A DNA stretch of 20,000 bases from contig ML992513.1 of assembly GCA_010093995.1 (NCBI GenBank), forward strand, positions 861,663 to 881,662. Reading direction: 5' to 3'. A program made the position numbers and the translations under genes. Within the stretch, counting starts at the first letter, position 1. Each line of letters begins with the position of its first letter. Of this stretch, positions 1 to 20,000 are shown piece by piece. A model generated the notes under the pieces. It did no database searches. It was not told the DNA's origin and saw only the letters and a list, made by a program, of their open reading frames with translations. Origin of the DNA: Elsinoe ampelina. Its lineage: Eukaryota.

Positions 1-2
1 GA

Positions 3-2785: not shown

Positions 2786-3474
2786 TTAGAGAAGTATAAA
2801 TATATTACTATTAGTCTCTACTCGTTCTAGAAAGGAGCTAAGAAGAAGAAGTAGAATAAGTAGAGTTAATCTTAGATTTAAGTATAGTAACTTACTATCT
2901 AGCTTTCTCTAAGTAGTATAGTTAGGTAATTCCTAGATATAAATACTCTCCTACGAGACTTATTATTATACTTACCTCGTTTCTAACTTACTTATATACT
3001 AACTTTAGCCTAAAGAGACTTCTTATCTATAGTTAATAAGGAATTTTGTTCTTCTACTAGATTATTATCTAGTAACATAGATATACTATCTATTTATAGC
3101 CTTTATAGTAGTAGTAGAATAAATAGTAAGTAGGCATATAGTAGTTATTAAGGCTCTAGTTATAAGCCTAGTTATTATATATATACTACTACCTCTCTAT
3201 AATTACTATTATTAACATATATAGAATTAAAAAGCGTACTATTAACGCTCTATCTTATATACTCTCGAAATATGTATAATTAGTAATAAGACCTATTTAC
3301 TTAAGAGTGTTATTTATAAGTAGTATCTATAGTAACTCTCTAGGAGAGAGTTAATAAGAGTATCTATAGAGAGTATAGATATTAAAATTATAAGAACTAG
3401 TATAGAGATAGATATATTTAACTAGTCTATAGCTAACTTATTTACTAAATTTATATACCTTAGTATAAACTTAT

Positions 3475-3936
3475 TATTACGAACTAGTAGAATAGCTAAA
3501 GTATAGAGACGTTAGGACTAATTAAACTACTAAGGTTATTACGTAACCTAGTCTAATATTTACTTAATTCTTTATCTTCTCTAGTAGCTCTACTCTAGAG
3601 ACTATAGAGCATATAGGTTACTAGTAGATATATACTCTATATTACTCCTAACTCTCGCTATAAAGTATATAAAGTATATAGAGTATATAGTAAAGAATAT
3701 ATATATATAGAAATAGTTCTTACCTTATATAAGTACTATAGTTAATCTTGTCTAGATAGTAAACACTAGTATTGCTAAGGCTAGCCTTTATAATACTATC
3801 TAATTATACTTTATTATCTATAAGATATACCTTCTCTAACTCTTACCTTAGTACTATACTACTATAGAAGTAGAACTACCTTGTTTTTAGCTTAGCTTAG
3901 ACTACTAGTGTAGGCTATATTAGATAGTTTATAATA
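3475..3936 (+). mobile_element. 5' LTR of a Ty3/Gypsy retrotransposon (RIP-degraded)
   Basis: Starts tattacgaacta and ends tagtttataata. These are 12-bp inverted termini (10/12, both mismatches RIP-type) restoring to TGTTACGAAC...GTTCGTAACA. TATA-like tatataag at 3726. Gag frame begins ~30 bp downstream. Confidence 0.7.
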
Positions 3937-3968
3937 TTTTAACTACTCTTACTATAGTATAGCACGCT

Positions 3969-4712
3969 ATAAGGTTAATAAGTAACTCTTACTCTAAGTT
4001 ACTATTAGTATCTTTAATTGCTAGTAAGCTAGAAAAGCTTACTATTAATAATATATCTACTACTAGTTTAACCTCGGGCGAATATAGAAAGTCTCTTAGT
4101 ATAGAGAAAGAATAAAGTAGACCTAAGTTAGAAGTAGAACTCTTTTATAAGAACTATATCTACTTAAGGCACTTTCTTATTTAACTTAAAGCCTTCTTTA
4201 CTCTAGAGAGAGATAAGTACGCTAATAACGTAGTAAAGGTTCTCTATACTAAGATACACCTTAAAGGCGCTATCTTTAGGTAGTTTAAGCCTTATATAAG
4301 TAGCTACCTAGATAGATAACTAAGCCTAGATATAAAGGCTATCTTTAAGAGCTTTAATATCTTTTAGGTAAAGATTAAGTAAGTCTTTAATATATCTAAT
4401 AAGAAGTACATTACTATAATAAAGATCTAATAACTATAATAATATAGGTCTATAGCCTAGTACTATTCCTAGTTCTAATAACTTATAATATACCTAGACT
4501 AGAATAATAGTACTAAACACTCTATATTCTATTAAGAGCTAAGTAACTTAGTTAAAGATTAAATAATACCCGAGCTACTAGATAGCCTTTAGGAACTAAT
4601 AGACACTATAATTGCTATTAATAACTAACTCTATAAATAACATATAAAACGTTATAGAGGATATAAGGTAAATATTAAATATATATATTTCTCCCGGAGT
4701 TATAGAGACTCT
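3969..4712 (+). mobile_element. gag: Ty3/Gypsy gag relic (Retrotrans_gag-like), truncated
   Basis: Read-through of one frame gives HLKGAIFR*F, KI**L**YRSIA*YYS*F**L, LD*NN, FY*ELSNLVKD, IAINN*LYK*. These restore to LKGAAFxWF, LRQxGS, LDWDD, FYQGL..VKD, AIDNRLYE. The frame breaks at SYRDS (YGDP-like), and no pol follows. Confidence 0.88.
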
Positions 4713-4725
4713 AACTAGAATACTA

Positions 4726-4830
4726 AATTAGACCTAGGCTAGGTCTAATTAGAGTAAGAAAAATTTGTATATAGGGAAATAACTCTAAGGGGGTAGAGTT
4801 TAGTTTTTTTTAAGACCTAGGGTCTAATTA
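4726..4830. repeat. Cluster of inverted repeats / putative element-end motif A
   Basis: Perfect 12-bp IR aattagacctag-g-ctaggtctaatt (4726-4750); IR aactcta-aggggg-tagagtt (4781-4800); box agacctagggtct (4813-4825). Confidence 0.75.
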
Positions 4831-5203
4831 TGTTTCTAAATGATTTCTAACTCAAAATTGGTACTAGTTTAAAGAACATCTAAATCGAGTCCTAGTTATT
4901 AATATAAAAAGTCTAGAATTAACAAAACATAAGCAGTTATAATAGCTTAAAAACTATATTAAGTTAGGAATATTTAGAATAAAGTTCCTATAATTTATAG
5001 AGAAAGGACTACTACTATATATAATAGACACTTTATAGAGATAGACTAGTAGAAATAGAGCGCTCTAGGCTTAGCAAAGCTGCTCTAAACTGTTTATTCA
5101 ACTTTGTAAATGTGAATACTATTACTATACTATAGTTATAAACTATTATTTAGAGATTAAATTATCTACTCTTTATTCTAAAACTTTGTACTCTAATCTC
5201 TCT

Positions 5204-6634
5204 ATAGCTTAAAGCTATAAAGGACAACTAAAATAGTATAGAAACAAGTCTTAAAGACATAAGAAGGACCTTTATACGTTCTATCCTATTAAGACCTAGG
5301 CTACTAGCTAATAAGAATAGCTAAAAACACTAGAGTATATTAATAGCCTTAACTTCGAACAGGTTAAGGTATAGCTTTAAGAGGTTCCTTCTAATAGTAC
5401 TAGTCTATAGGAGATTCTAGAAAGAGATACTAGGGGTTAGACAAAGGCTTAGGTTATTAGGGATGTTATATCTAGGCTAACTAATGCTACTCTAACCTCG
5501 AGTAAAGATATAGTACTTATATAGAAGTATATGACATACTATTAGGTATAGAAGACAGAGAAGAAGAAAGTATAGAGAAGTATAAATAGTCTACTTCGAG
5601 CTCTCCTATAAGAGCAATTAAGTAGGCTTTTACTTATGCTTAGAGCATCTACGTAGAGGGATAGGAGGCGTTTTAGAAATGTCATTACGGAGGGTTAGGG
5701 CCTAGATTAGCTATAGAAAATTCCGAGGGAGTTACTACCTCCTAAGAAATAAGGTAGGTAAGTAAAAAAGATAGAGGATCTAAGTAAGCCTATCCTTAAG
5801 GCGCTTACTAGAAATATAAAGGTAGATCTATCTCTAGATAAGGCTACTCTTAAATAGAGAGAGGCTATTATAAAGAGGATAGATTCTCGGATTAGAAAGG
5901 CTACTAGGACAAGAGTAAGCAAGTAAGACTAGGTTACTACTAGTAACATCTATTAAGCTTTAAAGCTAGTAAGAGAGTTTTTAACCTAGGAAGCTTTATA
6001 ACTAACCTAAGGCAGGTTTACCGTAGACATTCCTAAAGATTAGATTATGTTTAGGGCAGAAGAGGATAGTTAAGAGGCAGTCCTAAGCTAGCTAGGGAAG
6101 GGGGGAAGGAAGAGAAAGAACAAGGGGAAAGAGTAAGGAGAGAAGTAGGTAAGAGAGAAAAGAAAGAGAGAGAAGGCTACTAGCTCTAAGATTCGAAGCT
6201 ATCCTAATCTCTAACCTTTATTAGATAACATTAGGAGAATAGATAGTAATAATAAATTGTTAGACTCTAATCCTATTAAGAGAAAGAGTAGAAGGATAGT
6301 AGTATAAGATAAAGAGAAGTATAGTTATAAAGAGACAGGGAAGGCTACTATCTAACAGCTTATTTCTTATCTTTATAATGTAGTATAGACAGCTTCCGGA
6401 GAGGATATTTATATTAACTATAGACATTATATATAGGATATAGGGTATAACCTTACTAAAGCTATTATAGAAAGTAGAGAAGAGGTAGCAGAGATAGAGG
6501 GAGATAGGGTAGAGAGGTCTACTATTCTTATAGAGGAAGTAGAGGAGGATATAGGGGAAAATAGAGAGGAGAAAGTAAAAGAGAATATAGAGAAGAATAT
6601 AGAGGAGAAGAGTTTAATGTCTAATAAAGAATAA
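5204..6634 (+). pseudogene. RIP-inactivated ~476-codon ORF of unknown function
   Basis: Single frame from ATA (ex-ATG) 5204 to TAA 6632 with only TAA/TAG interruptions. Restored segments include WGPDWLQKIPRELLPP, a basic KRK-rich tract, possible Cys pairs and an acidic C-terminal tail. Confidence 0.7.
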
Positions 6635-6777
6635 AAATTATAGAGGAAAAGCTTTATGTTATATAAAGCTACATTAATTTACTTAATCTATCTATTAAGC
6701 TATTAGCTACCTTATTATACTAGAAAACAAAAGAAAGAACTCTTACTATCTACTATACCTCCTTACCTCTCCTAATG

Positions 6778-7401
6778 TTACTTATGTTCTAGCCTTTAAA
6801 AGGCAGACTTAATCCTAACTCCTCTCTAACTAGTAAGCTAAAGGAGAATAATAATAATCTACTTAATAAGGGAGTCCTAGCTACTAGAAATAGTTATATA
6901 CTTCTAGTGCATGTTCTAGATAGACTAGCTATCTTCTATAGGAGGACAGGTGTTATAAACATCCTTAAGCCTAAGGAAATAGTTAGTAAGGGAGGGAGAG
7001 AGTAGAAAAGAGTAGGAGGCTACTTACTTAGTCTAGATTTGCTTAAGGATCTTTATAAACTTGTTAAGGTTATTAATAAGAGAGCTATAGTACTACATAC
7101 CCTTATTAAGACTATCCTAGCTAGTGTTAATAGCAGAGAAAGGACAGCTAGGGTTAATAAAGAGAGAGTTATAAAGGGTATTAAGCTAGTTAATTTAGTT
7201 ATAGAGGATAGTCCTTATACCCTAGAGATGCTAGACTATATCCTAGATAAGACTCTTAATAAGCTAGACTAGGTTAGTAAGCTTAGCTATCTAGTTATTA
7301 GTGCACTAGGTTAGTAGAGGGTTAATCTTAATAGGTATAGTAATCTTATTACCCTTAGGCTAAACAAGACAGAGGAGAGGAGTAGTAGTAGATATAACTA
7401 T
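6778..7401 (-). pseudogene. RIP-inactivated spliced gene, small helical hypothetical protein
   Basis: Minus-strand frame with only TAA/TAG stops. Canonical 57-nt intron 7027-6971 (GTAAGT...pyrimidine tract...CTAAC...TAG) joins the exons in frame. Confidence 0.6.
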
Positions 7402-7437
7402 TAGAATGCTTATAGTAGTATAATGTAATATAAGTTA

Positions 7438-7575
7438 TAGTATAATATAAGGTCTAATAGTAGTATAATATAAGGTCTAATAGTAGTATAATATAAAGTC
7501 TAATAGTAGTATAATATAAGGTCTAATAGTAGTATAATATAAGGTCTAATAGTAGTATAATATAAGGTCTAATAG
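7438..7575. repeat. Minisatellite, 23-bp unit x6
   Basis: tagtataatataaggtctaatag repeated six times with one substitution. Confidence 0.95.
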
Positions 7576-7716
7576 TAGTGTAAGTTATAGTAGAGTAGAA
7601 TAAAAGAAGAGAAGTAGAAGAGTAGAGGAAAGAGATATATATATTACAAGAGATTAGGTAGCTAATATAAAGATTCTATTGTTAAGTAACTATATAAGTA
7701 TATAGTATATAAAAAG

Positions 7717-7900
7717 TAGTAAGTATATAGGATATAAAGACTAGTAAGTATACGAGATGTAAAAAGTAGTAAGCATATAAGATATAAAACTTAATAAGTA
7801 TATAAGATGTAAAAACTAATAAGTATATAAGATGTAAAAAGTAGTAAGTATATAAGATATAAATACTAGTAAGCATATAAGATATAAAGACTAGTAAGCA
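7717..7900. repeat. Minisatellite, 25-bp unit x7 plus partial
   Basis: Units such as tagtaagtatataagatataaagac start at 7717, 7742, 7767, 7792, 7817, 7842, 7867, 7892. Confidence 0.9.
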
Positions 7901-7904
7901 TTTA

Positions 7905-8110
7905 GATTGAAGCTAGCTATAGTGTTAGAGCTAGCTAGGGTGTTAGGGCTATCTATAATAATATTAAAGCTATCTATAGTGTTAGAGCTAGCTAGGGTAT
8001 TAGAGCTATCTATAATAATATTAAAGCTATCTATAGTGTTAAAGCTATCTATAGTGTTAAAACTGGCTATAATACTAAAGCTAGCTATTATACTAAAGCT
8101 GTCTATAATA
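7905..8110. repeat. Minisatellite of 18/21-bp units with 57-bp higher-order period
   Basis: taaagctatctatagtgt / tagagctagctagggtgt / tagRgctatctataataatat variants in tandem. Confidence 0.85.
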
Positions 8111-8339
8111 AGGACTAAAAAAATCACCTTAAATTTATTAACTCGAGCTAGGATTAAACTACTACTATAAGATTAAGAGAGAGAATTACAAAATAGATTC
8201 TACTACTAGGCTAAAAAGACATAGTGTTTAATAGTAGTATAGTATTACTATCATTAAACACTATATATAATAGAAGGACATAAATTATAATATATATAGT
8301 AAACAAAGAATAGGCCTAGCTACTAGGCTAATTATTACC

Positions 8340-9110
8340 TTTGCTTTACCTACGTCGATTGTTTCTCCTATTGTTTCGCTTAAACACAAAAAAAACTAGA
8401 AGAGTAATATCCCTACTATTAGCTACGTTAATAGCTGCCTATTAAACCTATTATTAAAGTTCGGTGACTTAGTTATTTAATGTAACCTAGTAATTAGAAA
8501 CTCGAGCATCGAACTCCTAGGGTAATACTAAGGCTAGAAAGCGTATGTCTATTACGACTACTATACTAGGGAACGAATTTATAGAGCCTAGGTTAGAGAC
8601 GTTAGTAGCTACAGGGTCGAGAGCAGTTTAGGAGTTAGTAGTGCCGGGGCTAGAGAAGGTAGAAGGCCTCCCGGAAAGGTTAAAATCGACCGGGGAAAAG
8701 GGTACTATCCTAGAGCTAGGCCTATTCCGAGTTTAAATAGGCGCCTAGCTAGGTTATACCGTAGAGGCAGGGGCAACTTAAGGGGTAGAGGCAGCTTAAG
8801 GTTAGCTAGCATAGGTACAGCTATTATAGTAGTTAGATAGGAGACAGTTTATATACTCTCTATTAAAAAGTCTAGGGAAAGTAATAATATACTAATCTAT
8901 ATAGCCGTTGTCGCGACTATAGTAGTCGCAAGGGACAGTATTAACTCTTCTACTAATAGCGGTATATGTCTATAATGCTAGGATATAATTACGATTTAAG
9001 AGAGTTATAGTAATAGTGCTACCTAAAGAAGTTCTTAATGTTAGTAGATAACTATACTAATTATTAAGAGCGCTATTTATAGATAACAAGTTCTGTCCGG
9101 AAAAGGGCGC
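8340..9110 (-). pseudogene. RIP-inactivated DUF3716-like Cys-rich protein; an upstream exon may extend to ~9390
   Basis: 8996-8817 reads NRNYILAL*...VPCDYYSRDNGYID*YII...FNREYINCLLSNYYNSCTY, restoring to PCxxC..G...C...NGxCxNC......C, the DUF3716 pattern. A Pro/Ser/Gln-rich tail follows. Probable intron ~9184-9111. Confidence 0.6.
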
Positions 9111-10199
9111 CTATAATTAGTTACTTCCTCCGTAGGTGTAGATAAAGGTAAAGATATTAATAAGAGATTATATGTTTATATTACTTATATAAAGAGTAGT
9201 ACAAACTATGTCTATTATTAGTGTTACTATAACATCTCCCGGTTAGAAACACTTACTACTACTATTAATAAGATAGATAAGATAGTTAAGTATAGTCTAG
9301 GTCTATTAGGTTATTAGGTTACTAGGAGAGTTCTAAACTTAGGTATTGCCCCTTCTAAAGATAGCTACTAGCGTTGTTATTAGTATTAATATAATAAGAT
9401 TAACAATTAAAACAAAGGTAAGTATAAGTAGTAGGAGCGTACGTAAGTAAAAGAAAGAGAGAGAAATAGAGAGTAAGGACATAAGAGATAAATTACTTGC
9501 TCTTTATTTATGTTTTAGGCAATACTATAGACTTACTAGGTAAGTAAATAAAGAAAAGCACTACAGTAGTCGGATATAGTATATATATGTATAAAGGACT
9601 TAATATTCCTACTGCTATAGATAGTTACATAAAGGGTAGAAAGATAAGTTAAGAAGTATATTATACCTAGTAGTAAAAGAAGAAATTGTACTTCTCTTAG
9701 GGAAACTCTTATTTTTTTTTAATTGTCGTTTATGTCTAATGTATCCTATAGGATATAACAAAAATAATGTTAATAAATAGCCTTTTTACTATAGAATTAG
9801 AGATAGAAGAAAAATATTTCTATTCTTAAGCTATTTAGTTAAGAGGTCGAAATTTCTGCTAAGAGTAGCCTAATTTTAAAGATTCTTTATAGTCTTACTA
9901 GTATCCTTTCTAAATACTATATTCCAAATATAGTTTAAGGCTCGTTATATAGTCTCTCTACTCTATAATTATGTTTCTAAAGCAGGCTATAACTAAATCT
10001 TTAGCTTTTTGTTATATACTTACTCTATTATAGGTAGACTTTACCTTAGAGTAGTAATAGCTCTTTCTTATCTATCTTCTATTAGGATTAGTATATCTAT
10101 CTTTCCTTAGGATTAGTATCTACTGTATTTTTCCTTAGCCTCTTCTACCTTTATTAGCTTCTTACCTATATACGCTATCTAATTTGTAAATATCCTCTC

Positions 10200-10986
10200 T
10201 CTCCCCCTAGGGAACAAGTGTCCTCTACCTAGCTACGCTATAATTTACTCTCTAATTATAAGTGTTAGCTACATCGGGTAAGCTTTAGGTATCTTAACAT
10301 ATAATAAGGATCTTAGTAATGTTAAGTAGAGTATAAAAGGTCTATATAAGGCACTATTATTATTCTTAAAAGCTGCCGCTAGTAACGTAGGTAAGATTAG
10401 AGCTTAGTCCTAACTTCTAGGCAGTATTAAAGGCAAGTAATACTCCCCGTAACTAACTACGATAGATGTTCCCGGGAGTAGGTATAGTATTAGGATCTAA
10501 AGCTATCTCGGCGTTAAGGATAGAATAGATAGCGTAACTATTAGTTTTCTAGAAGACGAGAAGGACAGTATACTAGGCGTTATTAGCGCGTGTAACTATA
10601 CTACCTAGACGTATATAGACAATAGCTATTACTAGCAGAAGAGATCTAGCTCTAACAGTTTAATTCTAGGCGTTACTAGTAGTAGAAAAGGTATAACTAT
10701 CTACAAAGACCGAGTTAATAGAAGTAGAGACCCTAGTGTTCTTACTATACTCGCGAGCCTTTATAGTAGCGTCCTTAGAACAAATTAGCTTAGTGACAAG
10801 AAAATCGCTCTAGCCCTAAATAGCAAGGCTAGTAGTATTAAGTATATCTTAAATTATATATAGGATGTTATAAATATCTTAGTTTATGTTGTTAGCGTTA
10901 GTAGTAAGGCTATCTACTATAGTAGTATAGATAGATTAGAGGGCCTATCGGGCTTATACCTTAGCTGCTTAGTAGGTTATAGCTAT
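10200..10986 (-). pseudogene. RIP-inactivated ORF of ~260+ codons, unknown function
   Basis: Continuous minus frame from ATA 10986 with only TAA/TAG stops. Preceded by a CT-rich 5' tract (11080-11230 on the minus strand). The 3' end is uncertain. Confidence 0.6.
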
Positions 10987-11452
10987 AGTAAGTTAAATAG
11001 GTTAGAGAGAAGCCTTAAAGATAAGAGGTACTAGCGAGTAAAGGACTAAATATCCCTATAGGGATAATAGCTTATAAAAGAAGATAAAGAGAAAGAAAGG
11101 AGAGAAGAAGAAAGAGAAAAAAGAGAAGAGGTAAAGAGGTAAAAGAGAAGCTACTAAGGTATAAAAGAGAGGCTAGGGAGATGCGAAAGAAGAGGCTATA
11201 AAGATATAAAAGAAACTCTTAAGTATAACACAAACAAAGAGAAGTATATAACGGGCAAAATAACACTATATACTTATTAGACAAGGACAAACAACTCGGA
11301 AGTAGGACAAGATAGAATTCTAGAGATAGAGTGCTCTCTTCTTAGTAAGAATAGAGGCCTTACTATAAGCTACTTACGTAAGGATTGCTAACCTATTCTC
11401 GAAGATATAATTCTATTACTATGCTACTTTATTAGATTTATCTACGCTTATA

Positions 11453-11745
11453 CCTACTAGCTAGTATACTAGAATTTAAGGGGGAGTATATACTAGGATA
11501 TATACTAAGGTATATACTAGGATATATACTAAGGTATATACTAGGATATATACTAGAATATATACTAAGATATATACTAAGATATATACTAGTATACATA
11601 CTAGGATATATACTAGGGCATCTACTAGCTAGTATACTAGAATCGAAGAGGAGGTATAAGCTAGAGTATAAGCTAGAGTATATGCTAGTGTATCTACTAG
11701 CTAGTATACTAGATTATATGCTAGAGTATATACTAGAGTATATAC
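11453..11745. repeat. 12-bp minisatellite array 1 with palindromic modules
   Basis: tatatactagRR units; three tactagctagta-tactaga modules near 11455, 11623, 11695. Confidence 0.9.
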
Positions 11746-12254
11746 TTAGGCACGTAGATAATATACCTTTAATCTATTATGTCTAGCTACTTACCTGCCC
11801 TTAATAATAGATATATAGAGTAGCTTACCTCGAGTAGATAGCTTAATTACTTATTAAAGCAACTAAAAAAAAGTTATTTGCAATAGAGATAAATAGCAAT
11901 AGTATGTTTAAACAATAGACATAATGTTTAATAGTATTAAATAGGAACTTAGTATCGTGTAGGAGTAGTATTATAATACCGCCTTTAGTAGATAAGAAGT
12001 AGCTAGCGATAAACACTTTAGTTACTAGTAGGTTACCTACATATATCGCGTCTAGATAGTAAAATCTATATACTAGTATCGAGGGAGAGAGCTATGCTTA
12101 CTCTCTTAGAGGCGCTCTATAAGAGCTATAAATTATTGCTCTAGTTACCTTAAGGCGCGCTACTAGCTACTCGCATAAGAATCGCCCTATACTAGGTCGA
12201 TTCGACGATAGACTAAGTATAGATACGAAGTAATAGAGCTTTATAAAATGTAGA

Positions 12255-13210
12255 CTAGTATATATACTAGAGTATATACTAGTATATATACTAGCTAGTA
12301 TACTAAAATTTAAGAGGGACTACCTACTAGGGTAGATACTAGCTAGTATACTAGAATCTAAGAAGAACTACATACTAGAGTATATACTAGGGTAAATGCG
12401 AGGGTAGATACTAGGGTAGATACTAGCTAGTATACTAGAATTCTAGAGGGAGTATATACTAGAGTATATACTAAGGTATATACTAAGGTATATACTAGAG
12501 TATATACTAGAGTATATACTAAGGTATATACTAGGGTATATGCTAGAGTATATACTAGAGTATATACTAGAGTATATACTAGAGTATATACTAGAGTATA
12601 TACTAGTATATATACTAGTGTATATACTAGGGTATATACTAGAATATATGCTAGTATATATACTAGAGTATATACTAGAGTACATGCTAGAGTATATGCT
12701 AGAGCATATGCTAGAATAGCTACTAGCTAGTATACTAAAATTCTAGAGGGAGTATATACTAAGCTATATACTAAGGTATATACTAGTATATATGCTAGGG
12801 TATATACTAGGGCATATACTAGTGTATATACTAGTGTATATACTAGGGTATATGCTAGGGTACATACTAGTGTAAAAGCTAGTATATAAGCTAGTATATA
12901 AGCTAGTATATAAGCTAGTATATATACTAGTATTCTTCGTATATAGCTAACAATAATATGCCTTTCTACTATCTTTACTAATGGTAGAAAGGCATATTAA
13001 TAACTTGTTTATGTGTCTGCTAAAGTATATAGAGTGTATCTACTAGCTAGTATACCGGAATAGTAGGGGAAGTATACGCTAGGGTATAAGCTAGGGTATA
13101 TACTAGTATATATGCTAGAGTACATACTAGAGCATATACTAGAATAGCTACTAGCTAGTATACTATAAATATAAGGGAAGTACATGCTAGTATATATACT
13201 AGTATACCTA
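12255..13210. repeat. 12-bp minisatellite array 2 with palindromic modules
   Basis: tatatactagag / catatgctagag units; six tactagctagta modules near 12289, 12338, 12421, 12721, 13041, 13149. Confidence 0.92.
12955..12998. repeat. 15-bp perfect inverted repeat (hairpin) embedded in array 2
   Basis: aatatgcctttctac (12955-12969) and gtagaaaggcatatt (12984-12998). Confidence 0.9.
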
Positions 13211-13291
13211 GCGAGCTTAAGATACTAGTAGCAAGCTTAAGATACTAGTTAAGAGTAGAGTTAGATTTTTAAGTAGACCTAGAGTCTAGTT
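13211..13291 (+). repeat. 20-bp tandem duplication followed by putative element-end motif B
   Basis: gcRagcttaagatactagtW twice (13211-13250), then gtagagtt-N12-agacctagagtct-agtt matching 4793-4829. Confidence 0.75.
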
Positions 13292-13305
13292 TTTTCATTT
13301 CTATT

Positions 13306-15400
13306 ATAGCACTATTAATAGCTATTAGATCCATTAGAAACAGAGTTAGAATCATTATAAGCGCGTAAGTAATTGTCTAAGACATTATTACATATATATA
13401 GATATATAGAGTAGTAGTATATAAGCTATGTAGATATTGTATATAGCTAGGGCAAGTAGCTAGCTATTTTAGAGACAGATAGCACAAAGAGATAGCATAA
13501 ATAGCTAAAGAAATTGCGCAATGTATTAGTAATTAGTTTAGAGTATTAGTAAAGAGCGCGTAGGATTTTTAGATACCTATAGGTATATAAGAGGTAGTAG
13601 AAAATATTCTAGTCTACTAGGATAGGTTATAGTATAGGTTATAGCTAGAAAGTTACATATTTATTACTAGGAGCAAAGAGAAAATAAGGAAGCATTATAG
13701 CTAGTATTACGATTAGAGGTAATACAAGGTTAGTAGACTAAGTAGGTTAAAGATAGTAGAGGAAGTAGAGGAAGAGCTAGTAGCATAGAGAGAGAATATT
13801 AGTTGCTAGAGGTTTTTTGTTTAGGGTCTACACTTAGGGTATTTTAAAGTAAATATGCTAGAGAGGATATAAGATAGAAGAACTATAGTGTAAGTAGGAG
13901 AGTATATTAAGTAGCAATAGGAGAGATTTATCACTAAGGGTATAAGAGAGATAGACACAATTAGAGAGAAGATAGAAAAGAGAATTAAGAATAGTAAGAA
14001 GGATAAGGTTAATTATTAGTTAGAGAGGACAGAATAGATAAAGTTTTTAGCAGGGTTTAACAGGAGGGATTTAGTAGAGAGTATATAAGAACTAGACAAG
14101 GATAATATATTAGAGAGAGTAGAGAGTGCTATTTAGATAGCAATTAGTAGGTTAGTAAGGATAAGCTAGTATATAGTTAGGAAGAAGGTAGGGATTTTTG
14201 TAAGGATAGAAGCTATTAGAAATAAGAAGGAACAGAAGAGATATGTACTATTAATAGCATATTAGGATAAACAGGCTATAGAGTTAAATACTAGACTATA
14301 GTAGTAGGTAGTAATGTTTTTTATAAGGACAAGAAAAATCTATAAGTAGAAGAGTCTAAAGTATAGATTTATAGATAGGTAGAAGAGGTATTAGGGTAGA
14401 ATAATAAGAGAAGCAGGCATATAAGTACAGTAAGAGAGTAATAGAAGAAGAAGAGGTAGCTAGTAGAGCAACAGATTAGAAAGTTAAGGATAGTAGAATA
14501 GATTAGGAAGTTAGAGATAGTAGAACAGATTAGAAAGTTAGGGGTAGTAGAAGAAGAGACAAGGCAGGGATAATAATAGGATTAATAAGGTAGTTAAGGT
14601 AAGAGAAGAAGTAGCAATTAATATATAAGAGAGAAAGTTAATATTATTATAAGAGGCAGTATTAGATTTTTACATTTCATTGTTAGACTAGAGAGTAAAG
14701 AGCAGTAAATATAAGTATACATTAGTTAAGAGAATTGCAATTTTAGGGGTAGACATTAATAGGTAGAAGGGAGTAGATAGATACCTACTAATTTTGTTAA
14801 AGTTAATTAAGGTAGCTAGGTTTATAATTGTGTAGAAGGCATATTATATAGTTAAGCTAGTTAATAAGAAGGAGATTATAGAGGATAGTAGCAGTTTTAG
14901 TAGTAGTAGTAATAAGAGTAAAGAGAATAAGGGTAGCTAGCCTAGTAGGATAGATTTACTAAGGTAGTAAAGAAGGTAAAGTAGGCATAATAGCTAGAGT
15001 AGACATAGTAGCCTAGGGATTTTTCCTAACGCATATAACGCATTTTTAGATGTAGAAAAATTATTAGATAGATTAGGAAGAGGTAGAGAAAATTTAGAAA
15101 GTTAGTAAAAAAATATTAGAGAGAAGAGAGTTATTACTATAGTTAAAGAGATAGTAGACAGATTTATAGTAAGGGGCACTAATTTATCTATGTAATAGAT
15201 ATTAGATTTAAGGACATATAGGTTAAAGTAGTATTATAGTATAACATTAGTAGGTAAGGTTAATTAAAGAGGTAATAATAAGTTAATTTATAAGGTGTTA
15301 TATTTTAATATAGATACATTTAGAGAGTTTATATATATAATATTAAAAGAGGCCTAGAAGTAGATAGAGAAGGAATTATTAAGAGAATTCTAGACACTAT
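13306..15400 (+). pseudogene. DUF3505/OrsD-type Zn-finger ORF (N-terminal part of a fungal telomere-linked/RecQ helicase-type protein), copy 1; RIP-inactivated and truncated
   Basis: One frame of ~700 codons. Restored motifs: VVCKPCRYCVWP...HF....H, MRKHC...H.W, CQRFF, EVNxWLERTxW, RPWQQVVMFF, LDFCISLL, YPPILSKLIKVARF, DRFMVRGT..MQWMLDLRTYGLK. Similarity is lost at ~15400. The start could be 13306 or 13357. Confidence 0.82.
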
Positions 15401-15898
15401 ATGTCTTAGGAGAAAGAGTATATTCTAATAGTTTTACTAGAGTAGAGTTAGAGTATTTTTCTAGATTCTAATAGGATTCCTAACCTCTATTCTTTAGGAC
15501 TTCCTAAGATTTTTTCCCTCTAAATTTTTTAAAGATTACTTATATTACCTAGGTCCTCTATAATACTTAGTATTATCTAGAATTATCGAGTATTACTCCT
15601 AGAATCTAGGTTATAGTATACTAGGACTGTCCTAAAAATCTTTTAAAGTTCCTAAGAAAATATAGAGTAGAGGTCTTAGTAGCTTTACTCCTAACAGTTA
15701 GGAACTCTAGAACATCCCTATAAATTTAAAGAGGCCTAGGCAGACTAGTAGATAGACATAGAATACATATTAAAGCAGAATAAATTTCCTAGTAAATAGG
15801 AGGTCTAAGAATCATAAATGACTCTATAGTACTTAGATTATATATATAGATATTGCTCCTAGAGTTATTAGGGAAATCCTAGAGCCTATAATCCTTAA

Positions 15899-18530
15899 TT
15901 AAATAATAGACAACTAAGATCTTTAGTAGAAATACCTACTTCCTCTCCTGTCTTTGTCTTTTCTAACTACCTCTTAGTATTCCCCTATCATTTTCTAGAG
16001 TCTAGGGTTCTTAGGATAGCTAGATTAATATTTAATAGCTTTTTATAATACTAGATTTAGATCTAGTAAGTATATTATATCGGTAGGAGTTAGAATAGAA
16101 TTCTTAAGGGCTTATAGTTCCGCTAGAGTATAGAGCTATAATTATAAGTCTATCTACCTAAAGGTTTAGGCTATTATTCTTATTGTATTACCTATTGTTA
16201 TATTACTCTAGGCAATAATAAACTTTTATAAGGAATTATTAGTAAGCATTTCTAGTTTAGCCCCTAGTAGCTAGGCGTTAGTTAGTATATCCTAAGTCTC
16301 TAGGGATTATAACCTAGGCCTTTTATATGCTATATTTATATACTTCTTTGTTATTATATTACTCTTTGTTTTATATGTCTAGCTACCTAGTATAACTTAT
16401 AGATCTTATATATCTCTTTTATTCTCTCTAGCTTTCTTTCTTCTTTTTCTTATTACCTTTATTATAGTAAGTTTACCCTATTATAGCTAGATCCTTATCT
16501 AGTCCCTTTAAGAGAGTTAAAGCAGCTAGAGATACTACTACAGAGATTAAATAGCTTCTAATTAGCTCTAGAAAGAACTAGCTTTATAGCTTACCTATAG
16601 CCTTTATAGCCTTTATAGCTTTTATAAAGCTTTTTACTAGTAAGAGATAGATATACCTAGTAGCCCTTTACACTAATAAGCCTAGTAGCCTTTATAGTAA
16701 TATATATAGCTCTATTTAGCCTATAGATCTTATCTCTACTGCTTTAACTCTACTAAGAGGCCTTAAATAAGGACCTTTAGTAAATGTAAGCCTTCCTAAG
16801 AACCCTAACTAACTATAACTTCTAGTTCTAACCTCCTAGCCCTTCTACAATTTTGCCTTCCTTCCTAAATAACTTCCTAAGCCTAGCGCTCTTAGTAACT
16901 ATTATAGCTCCTAGGGCCTTATATACTAGGACTCCTATAACCTTCCTAGCTACTACTAGAGACAGAGTTACTAACCTAAATACCCTAAGTAAGCCCTAAG
17001 TCTCTAATATATATCCTAATTTCACTAACACTTCTAGGCTATGCCTAGGTTCCTATAACCCTTCCCTTTGCCTAGCAGGTCTAGGCTAACCTCTAGGGAC
17101 TTAATATAGCCTAGCGTAATTCCCTAGATGCCTAGGTTAAACCCCTAGTTAACGCTAATCTCTAGGTCTTCGCTAGGACCGGTCCTAAGTTCTAGCTTAA
17201 CTAGCCTATTAACCTAAGGACTCCTAGAACGACTATAAACCTTTCTAGATCCAACACTAACTACCTAGTTTCTCTACTCGTCTATAGCGCTTCTAGGTAT
17301 ACTATCTACCTAGCTAGTTAGGAGTGTACTTCCTATACTTAGGGGAATAGCAAATATAACTCCTATATTACTATAACTACTCCTAATAGCACTATACTCC
17401 TAAGGGGCTCCTATACTAACTATAGCTTCTAGAACAATTACTATAGCTATAGCTTGTCTAGTACGTGTTCCTAAGTTTCCTAATCGATCCTAACTAACAT
17501 AAGTCCTAGACTACTAGAGAGCTTCTAGACGCCCCTCTACTAACCCTACCCCTATACGTCCTAGAGCTTCTAGACCTATAAGACGCCTTAGAGGTCTCCT
17601 AACCGACGATAAGGCTACTAGGGGCTTTCTAATTAAGCTTCCTAACAACTCTAACTCTTCTAAGAACTAGCACGCCCTAGACAATTTCTTAGCTCTCCTA
17701 GACAATATTAAGGCTTAGGTAACTACCCTAAGGGATAGGGGCTACCTAGTAGAGTAGGATAAGCTCCTAGATCTTACTAAGTCTAGGCTTATCTTTAATA
17801 AGGCTTAGGGCTAGTTAGGATTATATATGGCCTTAGGGCAACTTTAGGGGATATTAGGATAGAGTAGCTAACTCTCCTAGTTTTCTTAAGTGTAGAGTAA
17901 GTAAGTAGCTTTCCTAGGGTTTAGATAGCTTAGTCTAAGTGTTCTAGATGTTATAATAGGCTAGTAAGCTCCTAAATATTATAACTCTAGTTCTAAATTA
18001 GAAATCTTCACTAATAGTCTATTAAATTTCCTAGTGTTTCTATAATATATAGGTGATATAGTATCTTCCTAATATACCTAAGCCTTCTAACTTTAGGTTA
18101 GAATTCTAAGCTTAGCTAAGAGTTAGAGTAATCTTAGGGTCTTTCTATAATTTATGCCTAATATAATATTCTCCTAATTCGCCTAGACTTACTTACCTTA
18201 GGATTTTAAGCTAAGTATTTCTAACTATTAGGGTAGTTACCCTATACTACTAGAGTATCCTAATCTACCTAAGCCTACTATATATAGAGGCCTTGTTATT
18301 AGCTAATATAAGTATAGTTACTGTTTTGCCTAATTCTATCTAATTAGTAAGAATTCCTCTAGTTAAGCTATCCTTACGTTCTTAGTTAAGTATAAAGCCT
18401 GCTCTAACCCTAAAAAACTTAGACTGTATTTTTTTAATTTATATCTAGTATAGTAGCTTCCTAATTTGTCTAGGCCTACTAACCTTAGGGCCTAAACCCT
18501 AAGTCCTCTACGTCTTAGTCTACTAAACAT
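15899..18530 (-). pseudogene. RIP-inactivated ~830-codon ORF of unknown function, divergent from DUF3505 copy 2
   Basis: ATG at 18530; one minus frame to ~16345 with TAA/TAG stops and a single TGA. Putative introns at 16594-16538 (GTAAGC...TAG) and 16343-16271 (CTAAC branch, restores the frame). Ends KMIGEY*EVVRKDKD...LSII*. Confidence 0.62.
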
Positions 18531-18685
18531 CTAAGATCTACTATCCCTTAGAACCTTAGAAGAGTAGTCTAGAGCTTTAGAGGTTCTCTAATAAAGGTTA
18601 AGTCTCTATATAGAATACTAAGCTTTATATAAAAGGTACTACTATTTAATACTTCCTAGATCTATTTAGTTTACTTCTATCTACT

Positions 18686-20000
18686 ATAGTATCCTAGCAA
18701 GAACTATAGGTCTCCCCCTAGGTTTCCTATCCTTACCTAGTAGAAGAAACACCCTTTAAGTACTTCTAGTAGTTTAAAGTAATTATCTATATAGATTATA
18801 GGTTTACTATAATCCCTAATTAGGTTACTTTCTACCTAAAGAAGTATTACTCTTCCCTAGCAAAGAATAGGTAGTAGAATATTATTAGTATAGCAGAAGA
18901 TATACCGAATTTAGCAAGGAAGAAATTAGATATTTAGTACCTCTACCCTATAGCAGAAGTAATTCTAGAACTACCTATTTAAGGTCTAGGCTTTAAGTAT
19001 ATCTATAGAGATACTTAAAAAGGACAGTGTAGCTATATTACCTAGTATATTAAGGTTATATAATAGCACTATAGCTAGAAGTATAACTAGAAGAGTAACA
19101 AGTCTAGGGGAAAAAGTAAGGCTTAGAGAGCAAGACTAAGAAGTAATAAGATATAGGTTAGTAGTATCTAGAGCTAGAAGTTCTTTTAGGATAAAGCCTA
19201 GTAAAAGTCTTTCTAGGTTTAAGTTCTAGATATAGAAGTAGCACAGGAAAGACCTAAGGATAGGGTTAATATATAGTTAAGAATCTATTAGGACACTCTA
19301 AGTAGGAGAAACAACTAGAAGGTTATTTAAGGTCTAGGAAATAGATATAAGGTTAATCCCTAGCTAGAAATAATAGGTTAAATCTAGCATCTTATAGGAT
19401 TTAAGTAGCTTTAGGTCCTATAGGCTATTACTCCCCCTAGTTAGAATTTTGTCTTTTAGCTATATTAGCTCCCTAGAGCTAGAACATCCTATAGTTATAG
19501 GATAAAGTATAGAGTATACCTAATAATAGAGGAACAAGTAGAAGCTTAAGGACAAGTATAGGCTAAGAGAAATAGTTGCTTTAGGCACTTTACTAATTAG
19601 GAGGCATAGGAGAGAGATACTAGGCTACTAAGAGCTAGCAAGGCAACTAGTACACTTATTAGACTCTATATAAAGACTACTAAGTAGTCTATAGTAGGAA
19701 ATGTAGTTCTAGAGTTTATTAAAAGACTAGAGGTTAGCGGAAGTAAGGACTAGTAACTATTCTATTCTAAGTACAAAGTTAGTACTATTAGGAACTATAC
19801 TAATATTTAGGTAAAGCTACTAAAGTTTATCTAGAGGACCTAGGACCTAGCTAAGGGAGATAGACTAGGATATAAGCTACTAACTACACAGAGGACATTT
19901 CTAATAAATGTTATAGACTTAGTAAGATAAGATAATAGGGATAATAACATTAGGAGCTAACTAGTTAAGAGTCTTAGGCAATTCTAGCTATCTATATTCT
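18686..20000 (+). pseudogene. DUF3505/OrsD-type Zn-finger ORF, copy 2; RIP-inactivated, runs off the window
   Basis: Restored motifs: PFxHF..FxVIVCxDCRFAV.P..V..HLKKHH, C...CGY, MQQHC..KH.W, QKFF, EVNPWLEMTG, RPFYSK, YxxVWVKLLKFIWRT, FWLSMF. Same motif order as copy 1 but clearly divergent. Confidence 0.78.

What the first reader, a model, noticed from the sequence alone, without database searches (positions are those of the whole stretch)
4713..20000. Candidate gene-carrying mobile element family built around DUF3505/helicase-type ORFs, present as nested or tandem relics
Seen: a Gypsy gag is cut at ~4712 by non-retroelement DNA. That DNA holds four decayed cellular-looking genes, five minisatellite arrays, a DUF3505 ORF cut at ~15400, then an unknown ORF and a second divergent DUF3505 ORF. 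All of it is heavily RIPped, which implies it was multicopy or embedded in repeats. Known: DUF3505 (two C2H2-like fingers) occurs N-terminal to RecQ-like helicase domains, and fungal telomere-linked helicase genes lie next to tandem repeats. Inference: these are mobile, cargo-bearing units able to interrupt other elements, distinct from DUF3435 Starships. The downstream part of such proteins may carry a tyrosine-recombinase-like domain, but that part and the helicase are absent from this window.
Basis: partly seen in the sequence, partly recalled or inferred. Interest (0 to 1): 0.85.

Follow-up and report, generated by a model that had tools for sequence, protein, structure and literature searches.

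The report
RIP-killed telomere-linked helicase gene relics
The two "DUF3505" reading frames are mutated, truncated remains of fungal telomere-linked RecQ helicase genes sitting in a decayed chromosome-end-type repeat block, a known kind of repeat and not a new cargo-carrying mobile element.

Summary
Bases ~2300-20000 are heavily RIP-mutated. A DUF3505/OrsD frame at 13381-15388 (+) ends abruptly. A second, divergent one runs from 18746 to the window end.

Both frames are N-terminal parts of the fungal telomere-linked helicase (TLH) family: OrsD fingers, a ~800-aa middle region, then DEAD and Helicase_C. Copy 1 has 271 relatives, the best at E 7.8e-144. Its stops fall on Q or W of the intact relative in 31 of 36 cases. 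No helicase part lies in the window.

Contigs of two runs from one sample, probably the source, suggest that 15389-20000 is a ~25-50x repeat. Its left edge meets several different flanks. TLH copy 1 is about single-copy.

In 78 metagenome loci of relatives:
- 7 end in (TTAGGG)n downstream of the gene.
- 9 hold two same-strand copies.
- One truncated copy is capped directly by a telomere.

A third relic at 5453-6169 matches an ORF family that sits next to TLH genes in 8 of those loci.

I found no transposase, recombinase, terminal repeats or conserved cargo. The "four cellular genes" and the "unknown ORF" were not confirmed. Best reading: decayed subtelomere-type TLH repeat units, a known kind. 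Interest is low to moderate.

The parts
2300..20000 (.). AT-rich, RIP-mutated block that abuts an ordinary GH127 gene (3-~2200)
   Evidence: Composition; RIP indices per kb; GH127 and Laminin_G_3 Pfam hits in 1-2200.
3336..4711 (+). Very-high-copy repeat. The frame 4098-4700 looks like a Gypsy-type gag. It ends at a repeat edge near 4711.
   Evidence: Summed contig depth is ~103,000 and ~36,000 against ~160 in the flank; loose ends at 4517-4711. The gag likeness is by eye only; there was no Pfam hit at E<=10.
4712..9271 (.). Low-copy repeat with at least one paralogue in the same sample. The paralogue differs almost only by transitions. In it, the 9271-like end is joined directly to the start of the 15388 repeat.
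   Evidence: Depth is 1.5-6x the flank. Of 146 differences in run X1, 145 are transitions. A contig in each run joins 9271 to 15388; I inferred its length (~155 nt) from the from_end values.
5453..6169 (+). Relic of a ~500-aa ORF family of unknown function. In relatives this ORF lies 0.4-0.7 kb upstream of a TLH gene and points the opposite way. Its own TLH partner would lie left of 4712 and is missing.
   Evidence: The family was found in 8 of 78 loci. Its profile hits 5633-5953 at iE 2e-6, the only hit below E 0.1 among 38 flank families tested. Stop-tolerant alignment scores are 106-142 against reversed-sequence maxima of 46-51.
7412..8107 (.). Three adjoining minisatellite arrays (23-bp, 25-bp and 18/57-bp units)
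   Evidence: Tandem Repeats Finder.
11484..13249 (.). Compound 12-bp minisatellite blocks (11484-11746 and 12261-13249). They end ~130 bp before TLH copy 1 starts.
   Evidence: The position parallels the HAR-CDEF array that ends 181 bp before the M. oryzae TLH start codon (PMC1635262).
13381..15388 (+). TLH copy 1: a RIP-inactivated pseudogene in one frame, covering roughly the first 660 of ~1500-1650 residues (OrsD fingers plus part of the TLH middle region). It is cut at 15388/15389 and is about single-copy.
   Evidence: 271 relatives; best E 7.8e-144; 31 of 36 aligned stops fall on Q or W. Depth is ~1-1.3x the flank in run X1.
15389..20000 (.). High-copy repeat unit whose sharp left edge meets several different flanks. 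Summed depth falls from ~50x to ~25x of the flank along its length.
   Evidence: Depth is 3800-8000 against ~160. Four contigs with unlike sequence in front (agreement 0.54) all begin to match at 15389. The window's own contigs stop at 15433 and 15423.
17945..18490 (.). Degenerate ~105-bp tandem repeats ending ~260-280 bp upstream of TLH copy 2
   Evidence: Self-blastn offsets of 105 bp.
18746..19996 (+). TLH copy 2: the RIP-mutated N-terminal ~400 residues of a different TLH subfamily, in one frame, running off the window end
   Evidence: iE 2.2e-11; best relative P0132, 1.3e-37; copy 1 against copy 2 gives only 27% over 122 aa, E 0.17.

Best explanation

Shown:
- Two same-strand TLH 5' parts are present, and both are dead through RIP-type point mutation.
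- The proximal copy (copy 1) is cut after about residue 660, exactly where a high-copy repeat begins.
- That repeat carries copy 2 about 3.4 kb further on.
- A third, inverted relic consists of a TLH-neighbour ORF.
- Tandem-repeat blocks lie just upstream of both TLH starts.

Inferred:
- The block is a present or former subtelomere, with the telomere to the right of the window.
- Older TLH units were shortened by terminal loss or breakage.
- The broken end was then extended by capture of the currently dominant subtelomere unit, through recombination or break-induced copying. The same happened in a paralogue at a different breakpoint (9271-like).
- RIP then mutated everything and leaked into the neighbouring GH127 gene.

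Nothing here is likely to be functional. Intact family members are thought to act in telomere maintenance.
For: Family identity
- phmmer finds 271 relatives at E<=1e-3. The best, P0001, scores 7.8e-144 at 55% identity.
- Of 23 long relatives I picked from the top 150, 20 have OrsD, 20 have DEAD, 17 have Helicase_C, and 17 have both OrsD and DEAD.
- Sources name the relatives 'superfamily II DNA helicase RecQ'.
- TLH proteins are described as two C2H2 fingers plus helicase domains plus a TLH domain (10.1101/2022.03.07.483234, passages).

Death by RIP
- 31 of 36 aligned stops fall on Q or W. The commonest substitutions (E>K, M>I, D>N, P>L, G>R, H>Y) are all C>T or G>A changes. There are no frameshifts.

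Truncation at a repeat edge
- Homology ends at 15381-15393.
- Summed depth steps from ~217 to ~7800 at the same place, where four contigs with unlike flanks also begin to match.

Telomere linkage of this family
- 7 of 78 metagenome loci end in (TTAGGG)>=3. In all 7 the array is at the contig end, 1.7-5.2 kb downstream of the gene and in sense orientation. No CCCTAA array was found.

Tandem and truncated copies are usual
- 9 of 78 loci hold two same-strand copies.
- In L051 a copy ends at residue 861 directly on a telomere array.
- F. oxysporum strains have 4-22 full and 1-20 truncated TLH-containing regions each (PMC12857005, Table 4 as quoted in a passage). These occur singly or in arrays (10.1101/2024.02.27.582403, abstract).

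Flanking tandem repeats
- These are described for M. oryzae, along with frequent terminal truncation and sharp boundaries to unique DNA (PMC1635262).
- In relatives, 32 of 51 loci have an array within 1.5 kb upstream, against 18 of 51 for gene-internal control stretches.
Against: - No telomere array lies in the window, and single TTAGGG/CCCTAA motifs are not telling. No genome is held, so the distance to a chromosome end is unknown and the block could be internal.
- No telomere motif marks the 15388 junction. Such a motif would be expected under a simple 'heal, then add on' route.
- One fixed left edge joined to several unlike flanks also fits an element with a defined end.
- The depth figures are sums over contigs at >=95% likeness from two runs of one sample, probably the window's own source. 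The tool warns that they are not copy numbers.
- The enrichment of upstream tandem repeats in relatives is only about twofold.
- About 12 kb of the segment (6170-13380 and 15389-18745) has no identified origin.
Confidence: 0.75

Rival explanations
1. One reading: units built around the DUF3505/helicase ORF are true mobile elements with defined ends. They carry cargo genes and insert into other elements, here into a Gypsy gag and into an older copy of themselves.
For: - The repeat has a sharp left edge at 15388/15389, shared by at least four contigs with unlike flanks.
- A paralogue joins the same edge to a 9271-like sequence.
- Another repeat edge lies at ~4711, next to a truncated high-copy retroelement.
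- Depth suggests tens of copies (all).
- REPET classed similar helicase + DUF3505 repeats in C. higginsianum as TE families (PMC5576322, passage).
- One relative fuses DUF3505 to a hAT dimerisation domain (P0262).
Against: - No transposase or recombinase domain was found in the window, in 23 scanned relatives, or in the precomputed Pfam lists of the 120 relatives listed of 124 found.
- No inverted or direct terminal repeats or target duplications lie at the junctions.
- Apart from the TLH-neighbour ORF relic, the flanks of 78 relatives' loci share nothing with the window's non-TLH DNA.
- Where a contig end is seen, relatives sit at telomeres in one fixed orientation (7 of 78).
- The many near-identical copies are themselves RIP-dead, so their spread did not need their own ORF.
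- No gag-pol continuation lies in the window.
Confidence: 0.1
2. The 15389-18745 part is the 3' portion of a telomere-targeted retroelement on the minus strand (Penelope-like or non-LTR). It was added to a broken end by its 3' end, and TLH copy 2 belongs to the next unit outward.
For: - It would explain a fixed proximal edge with variable flanks, and a depth that falls with distance from that edge.
- GC and AT skew flip sign at ~15400 and again at ~18700.
- L. maculans telomere repeats include a Penelope-like element together with a RecQ TLH (PMC3105345, passage and table note).
- FoTeR retrotransposons co-localise with TLH regions in F. oxysporum (PMC12857005).
Against: - No reverse-transcriptase hit appeared in six-frame Pfam or PDB searches.
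- No minus-strand frame stands out.
- No poly(T) or telomere motif lies at the 15388 junction.
- Heavy RIP lowers the power of all these negative results.
Confidence: 0.1
3. The junctions are assembly artefacts, meaning chimeric joins of unrelated RIP-mutated repeats.
For: Repeats of this kind are hard to assemble. No listed contig spans the whole window.
Against: Short-read contigs cover 12895-15433 and 12895-15423 without any difference, so they cross the 15388 junction by 35-45 bases. All 30 depth bins are covered in both runs. These runs are probably the source sample, so they are not independent evidence.
Confidence: 0.03

Closest known systems
Magnaporthe oryzae TLH subtelomere (TLH regions I/II with helicase-associated repeats); PMC1635262, passages read
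   Same: A RecQ-type helicase gene with zinc fingers, transcribed toward the telomere. Blocks of tandem repeats end shortly before the start codon. Truncation is frequent, including inside the ORF. Boundaries to unique DNA are sharp.
   Different: Here both copies are killed by RIP and no helicase part or telomere array lies in the window. The repeat units are unrelated in sequence. An inverted relic of a neighbour ORF is also present.
Fusarium oxysporum TLH-containing regions (TLHcr); 10.1101/2024.02.27.582403 (abstract) and PMC12857005 (passages)
   Same: Tens of copies per genome. Full and truncated units occur at chromosome ends, singly or in arrays. RIP decay is reported for the neighbouring telomeric elements.
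   Different: Whether the window lies at a chromosome end is unknown. The F. oxysporum copies are mostly intact, whereas these are not.
Colletotrichum higginsianum subtelomeric repeat families carrying helicase and DUF3505 domains; PMC5576322, passage read
   Same: Long repeats carrying the same two domains. An automatic pipeline classed them as TE families, yet full-length copies occur only at subtelomeres.
   Different: Those repeats contain telomere motifs, and some contain transposase or retroelement domains. None of these was detected here.
Leptosphaeria maculans AT-blocks and telomere-associated repeats (RecQ TLH plus the Penelope-like RPP-Circe); PMC3105345, passages read, supplementary figure not seen
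   Same: A GC-normal gene region abuts an AT-rich, RIP-mutated mosaic of repeats. TLH is listed among the telomere-associated repeats.
   Different: I do not know the window's organism. No Penelope-like part was detected.
Saccharomyces cerevisiae Y' elements (as discussed in PMC1635262; further detail recalled)
   Same: A helicase-encoding subtelomeric unit found singly or in tandem, with short-repeat blocks on its centromere side. It spreads by recombination, not by its own enzyme.
   Different: The helicase is only distantly related. Y' tandem copies are separated by telomere tracts (recalled), and none is seen at 15388.
Starship elements (DUF3435 tyrosine-recombinase 'captain'; recalled, no call)
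   Same: Large fungal repeats that can carry genes.
   Different: No captain-like or other recombinase domain was detected in the window or in the relatives. The relatives are telomere-linked.

Membership tests
[quoted passage not shown] | N-terminal pair of C2H2-like fingers (Pfam OrsD / DUF3505) | tested here: met
   Copy 1: Pfam OrsD at E 0.014-0.037, below the gathering score because of RIP, and profile positions 5-537 at 7e-85. Copy 2: profile positions 7-237 at iE 2.2e-11. Several Cys and His positions read Y, or fall on a stop codon (shown as X), after RIP.
[quoted passage not shown] | Family-specific region between the fingers and the helicase | tested here: met
   Copy 1 aligns to P0001 residues 1-~495 at 51% identity and to the matching part of all tested relatives. 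Copy 2 aligns to P0132 residues 14-375 or 5-407.
[quoted passage not shown] | RecQ helicase core (DEAD + Helicase_C) | tested here: not met
   No helicase match lies anywhere in the window. Copy 1 is cut before it and copy 2 runs off the window. I therefore call them relics derived from TLH genes, not functional members.
[quoted passage not shown] | Position next to a telomere, transcribed toward it | not testable with these tools
   No telomere array in the window and no genome held. For relatives of this family, 7 of 78 loci end in (TTAGGG)n downstream of the gene in sense orientation.
[quoted passage not shown] | Blocks of short tandem repeats flanking the gene | tested here: met
   12-bp arrays end ~130 bp before copy 1. 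~105-bp repeats end ~260-280 bp before copy 2.
   None was found in six-frame Pfam, six-frame PDB search (47-52), 23 scanned relatives (22), or the Pfam lists of the 120 relatives listed of 124 found (53). The TLH-neighbour ORF has no Pfam or PDB match, and its predicted model is unusable (mean pLDDT 38.6). RIP lowers sensitivity within the window.
   Left edge at 15388/15389: four contigs with unlike flanks, plus one paralogue joint. The right end lies outside the window. A sharp proximal boundary is also known for subtelomere domains (PMC1635262).
   No terminal repeats pair the edges in self-blastn, and I saw no duplication at 9271/15388. The paralogue that lacks 9272-15387 could reflect either a deletion or an insertion. 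No other isolates were available; only 2 runs of one sample were found.
Ty3/Gypsy LTR retrotransposon (for 3336-4711) | gag and pol domains | tested here: inconclusive
   The gag likeness of 4098-4700 is by eye only. There was no Pfam hit at E<=10 and no pol domain in the window. The very high depth supports a high-copy element.

The most novel reading that the evidence does not exclude
The ~25-50-copy unit that starts at 15388/15389 is a discrete element added to broken ends, not a passively recombining subtelomere. The same first base, to within 1-2 bases, is joined to at least five unlike sequences. Two of these are different breakpoints (15387 and a 9271-like site) in a duplicated older TLH subtelomere. 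The junction carries no telomere tract, and copy abundance falls with distance from that edge. This pattern would fit a donor with a fixed end, such as an RNA or linear-DNA intermediate that carries a TLH gene, joined onto chromosome breaks.
Probability: 0.12. Interest if true: 0.6.

Novelty: new member of a known kind. Interest (0 to 1): 0.25.

Why it matters
The check replaces a proposed new class of cargo-carrying mobile element with a documented one: subtelomere repeat units built around telomere-linked RecQ helicase genes.

The locus is still a readable record of chromosome-end turnover in a fungus with RIP. It shows an old TLH unit cut inside its ORF, a younger high-copy unit joined on at a sharp edge, a paralogue joined at a different breakpoint, and RIP leaking into a neighbouring enzyme gene.

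Two small leads could be followed in a whole assembly:
- the fixed left edge of the dominant unit;
- a conserved ORF family of unknown function that pairs head to head with TLH genes in some lineages.

Tried and rejected
- Word-based protein search of copy 1 found nothing, although phmmer then found 271 relatives. The equally empty word-based search of 10201-11052 is therefore a weak negative.
- Six-frame Pfam at E<=0.1 and six-frame phmmer against PDB sequences over 4711-19712 found nothing outside the OrsD hit.
- A purine/pyrimidine period-3 scan flagged 5900-6500, 6800-7400, 8300-9200 and 10100-11000. Only the first overlaps something identified (the TLH-neighbour ORF relic). The measure gave little signal on TLH copy 1 itself and cannot tell strands apart.
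- Self-blastn found no large internal duplication apart from the minisatellites. The two TLH copies are not alike at DNA level.
- Telomere motifs: no array was found, and single hexamers are uninformative.
- Stop-tolerant alignment of all 233 flank ORFs from relatives' loci gave only the neighbour-ORF family clearly above its own null. Weaker hits at 8709-8825 and 18208-18366 look compositional.
- Structure prediction of the neighbour ORF from 6 sequences gave mean pLDDT 38.6, so I ran no fold search. The protein-atlas look-up gave no hit at or above 0.9. The PDB profile search was empty.
- Sequencing runs: only two runs of one sample hold the stretch. No presence/absence comparison between isolates was possible.
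- Not available: whole genome, earlier findings, cluster members, and atlas look-ups of frames read through stops.

Full report
SETTING. The window opens with an ordinary gene. Pfam finds the GH127 catalytic and middle domains and a Laminin_G_3 domain in 1-~2200. GC then drops from ~0.52 to 0.26-0.40. From ~2300 to the end, the RIP indices are extreme: TpA/ApT is 1.5-2.8 and (CpA+TpG)/(ApC+GpT) is 0.11-0.41. In the first 2 kb they are 0.66-0.73 and 1.1-1.25.

THE TWO DUF3505 FRAMES. I read stops as X throughout. The + frame at 13381-15400 gives only a weak Pfam OrsD (formerly DUF3505) hit at E 0.037 and 0.014, below the gathering score.

- A full phmmer search of 1.84 billion representatives found 271 relatives at E<=1e-3, 105 at <=1e-10 and 11 at <=1e-30. 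The best is P0001 at E 7.8e-144 and 55% identity.
- I picked 23 long relatives from the top 150. Of these, 20 carry OrsD at residues ~5-115, 20 carry DEAD at ~900-1050, 17 carry Helicase_C, and 17 carry both OrsD and DEAD. No other kind of domain appeared apart from ResIII and one weak KaiC ATPase match.
- Sources name relatives of P0001 'superfamily II DNA helicase RecQ' or 'uncharacterized C2H2 Zn-finger protein'. The named ones come mostly from Dothideomycetes such as Elsinoe, Alternaria, Plenodomus, Didymella and Pyrenophora.
- This architecture is the one described for fungal telomere-linked helicases: two C2H2 fingers, helicase domains and a TLH-specific domain (10.1101/2022.03.07.483234, passages).
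- A profile of 16 full-length relatives places copy 1 at 13381-15387 (profile positions 5-537 of 1453, E 7e-85). It reveals a second copy at 18755-19450 (positions 7-237, iE 2.2e-11).
- Copy 2 is closest to a different relative, P0132 (1.3e-37). It aligns to P0132 in one frame over 18773-19927, and with stop-tolerant scoring up to 19996. Copy 1 and copy 2 barely match each other: 27% over 122 aa, E 0.17.
- No part of any helicase core matches anywhere in the window.

HOW COPY 1 DIED AND WHERE IT ENDS. Against P0001 the frame stays open to alignment for ~500 residues without a frameshift. Of 48 stops in the alignment, 12 lie in gaps. Of the other 36, 31 face Q (20) or W (11). The commonest substitutions (E>K 17, M>I 15, D>N 11, P>L 10, G>R 10, H>Y 8) are all C>T or G>A changes. 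This is the signature of RIP. Convincing homology stops at ~15390. All other relatives stop at 15381-15393.

COPY NUMBER AND EDGES. Only two runs, from one sample that is probably the window's own source, hold the stretch. They are kept as contigs. The tool warns that summed depth is not copy number. I therefore use only contrasts within the window.

| Region | Summed depth X1 / X2 | Reading |
|---|---|---|
| 1-3335 | ~160 / 152 | baseline |
| 3336-4002 | ~103,000 / 118,000 | very-high-copy repeat |
| 4003-4669 | ~36,000 / 33,500 | very-high-copy repeat |
| 4670-10005 | 240-940 / 172-284 | low-copy repeat |
| 10006-15341 (holds TLH copy 1) | 210-340 / 105-124 | about single-copy |
| 15342-20000 | 3800-8000 / 2070-6000, falling left to right | high-copy repeat |

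- In 4670-10005 the paralogous contigs differ almost only by transitions: 145 of 146 differences in X1 and 114 of 115 in X2.
- The window's own contigs run from 12895 to 15433 (X1) and 15423 (X2) and stop there.
- Four contigs with unlike leading sequence (agreement 0.54) begin to match at 15389.
- One contig in each run joins a 9271-like end directly to 15388, skipping 6116 bases. From the 'from_end' values I infer that this contig is ~155 nt long. About 134 nt of it match 9138-9271 with RIP-type differences, and 21 nt lie in the repeat.
- A loose end also marks 4711.

So TLH copy 1 is cut exactly where a high-copy repeat starts. That repeat carries copy 2. The repeat's left edge meets several different flanks.

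WHAT RELATIVES LOOK LIKE IN THEIR OWN DNA. A scan of metagenome contigs with an alignment of 18 relatives (A1) returned 78 loci.

- Seven of the 78 end in (TTAGGG)>=3. In all 7 the array is at the very end of the contig, 1.7-5.2 kb downstream of the gene and on the gene's sense strand. No CCCTAA array occurs.
- Nine of the 78 hold two copies on one strand, several of them truncated. A tenth flagged locus, L020, is a single copy with overlapping matches.
- In L051 a second copy ends at residue 861 directly against the terminal telomere array.
- Tandem arrays (period >=8) lie within 1.5 kb upstream in 32 of 51 loci that have enough upstream DNA. The figure is 18 of 51 for equal-length gene-internal controls, a modest enrichment.

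These results agree with the literature I read.
- M. oryzae TLH genes are flanked by blocks of tandem repeats, one ending 181 bp before the start codon. They show frequent terminal truncation, including inside the ORF, and sharp boundaries to unique DNA (PMC1635262, passages).
- F. oxysporum TLH-containing regions occur singly or in arrays (abstract), with 4-22 full and 1-20 truncated per strain (PMC12857005, Table 4 as quoted in a passage).
- C. higginsianum has long subtelomeric repeats with helicase and DUF3505 domains (PMC5576322).
- L. maculans lists a RecQ TLH among its telomere-associated repeats (PMC3105345).

In the window, the 12-bp arrays end ~130 bp before copy 1, and ~105-bp repeats end ~260-280 bp before copy 2.

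A THIRD RELIC. I extracted 233 flank ORFs of >=150 aa from the 78 loci. One family of ~500-aa ORFs recurs in 8 loci. It lies 0.4-0.7 kb upstream of the TLH gene on the opposite strand, and its members are 61-100% identical to one another.

- It has no Pfam match, no PDB match and no informative atlas neighbour. Its predicted model is unusable at mean pLDDT 38.6.
- Of 38 flank-ORF families turned into profiles, this was the only one to hit the window below E 0.1: + strand 5633-5953, iE 2e-6.
- Three stops in that alignment face W. With a score that rewards a stop against W, Q or R, all 8 members score 106-142 over 5453-6169. Reversed-sequence maxima are 46-51.
- By the geometry seen in relatives, its TLH partner would lie on the minus strand left of ~4650. 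That is beyond the 4712 edge, where the high-copy Gypsy-like repeat now sits.

At 4712, therefore, two truncated things meet. This looks like a rearrangement breakpoint and not like a clean insertion.

WHAT WAS NOT FOUND.
- No transposase, recombinase or reverse transcriptase in any frame.
- No tyrosine-recombinase-like tail in relatives. Their tails show only conserved cysteines.
- No terminal repeats or target duplications at 4712, 9271/9272 or 15388.
- No telomere array.
- No similarity between the window's other DNA and relatives' flanks.
- The 'four cellular-looking genes' and the 'unknown ORF' therefore stay unconfirmed. RIP blunts all these searches. The word-based search missed even copy 1.

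READING. The simplest account is a present or former subtelomere holding several generations of TLH repeat units.

- Shown: the family identity, death by RIP, the truncation at a repeat edge, the head-to-tail order, the upstream tandem repeats, and the telomere linkage and tandem or truncated copies in relatives.
- Inferred: that this block lies at a chromosome end with the telomere to the right. Also inferred: that copy 1 was shortened by terminal loss and the end was then extended by capture of the dominant unit, and that the same happened at a different breakpoint in a paralogue.
- Open: about 12 kb of unidentified RIP-mutated DNA, and why one exact left edge is used in several contexts without a telomere tract. 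That last point keeps alive, at low odds, either a mobile element with a defined end or a telomere-targeted retroelement.

VERDICT. The interpretation as a new cargo-carrying mobile element family is not supported. The frames belong to the known telomere-linked helicase subtelomere repeats, here as RIP-killed relics.

Noticed in passing
window 1916-2194 (stops at 2054-2056 and 2183-2185): The Pfam GH127 middle-domain match runs straight through two in-frame stops (TGA, then TAG). The neighbouring GH127 gene therefore seems to be damaged at its 3' end where the AT-rich block begins. This looks like RIP leaking from the repeats into a single-copy gene.
   Followed up: partly
L063:7837-9345 (-), and the like in L032, L047, L050, L052, L057, L058, L059: A conserved ~500-aa ORF family of unknown function lies head to head with TLH genes, 0.4-0.7 kb apart, in 8 of 78 loci. 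It has no Pfam, PDB or atlas match, and its AlphaFold model has mean pLDDT 38.6.
   Followed up: partly
L051:8137-10766: A second TLH copy is cut at residue ~861 and capped directly by the terminal (TTAGGG)n array. This is a chromosome end healed inside the ORF.
   Followed up: yes
all 78 loci L001-L078: The telomere hexamer is strongly strand-biased around TLH genes: 483 TTAGGG against 36 CCCTAA on the gene's sense strand. Roughly 100 of the 483 lie in the terminal arrays. The spacers between tandem copies hold 2-8 single TTAGGG motifs and almost no CCCTAA.
   Followed up: partly
protein P0262: One relative, named 'DUF3505 multi-domain protein' by its source, combines PF12013 with a hAT dimerisation domain (PF05699). 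The finger domain therefore also occurs fused to transposase-type proteins.
   Followed up: no
window 14470-14552: A 27-bp in-frame repeat (3.1 copies) inside TLH copy 1 lies at a gap in the alignment to P0001. It is a coding-repeat expansion particular to this copy.
   Followed up: no
window 4726-4750 and ~4812-4830: Two similar short palindromes lie just right of the 4712 edge. The first is 25 bp at 96% self-complementarity. Their meaning is unknown.
   Followed up: no
window 6800-7400, 8300-9200, 10100-11000: These stretches show a clear purine/pyrimidine period-3 signal, a trace of coding that RIP does not erase, but they have no detectable homologue.
   Followed up: partly
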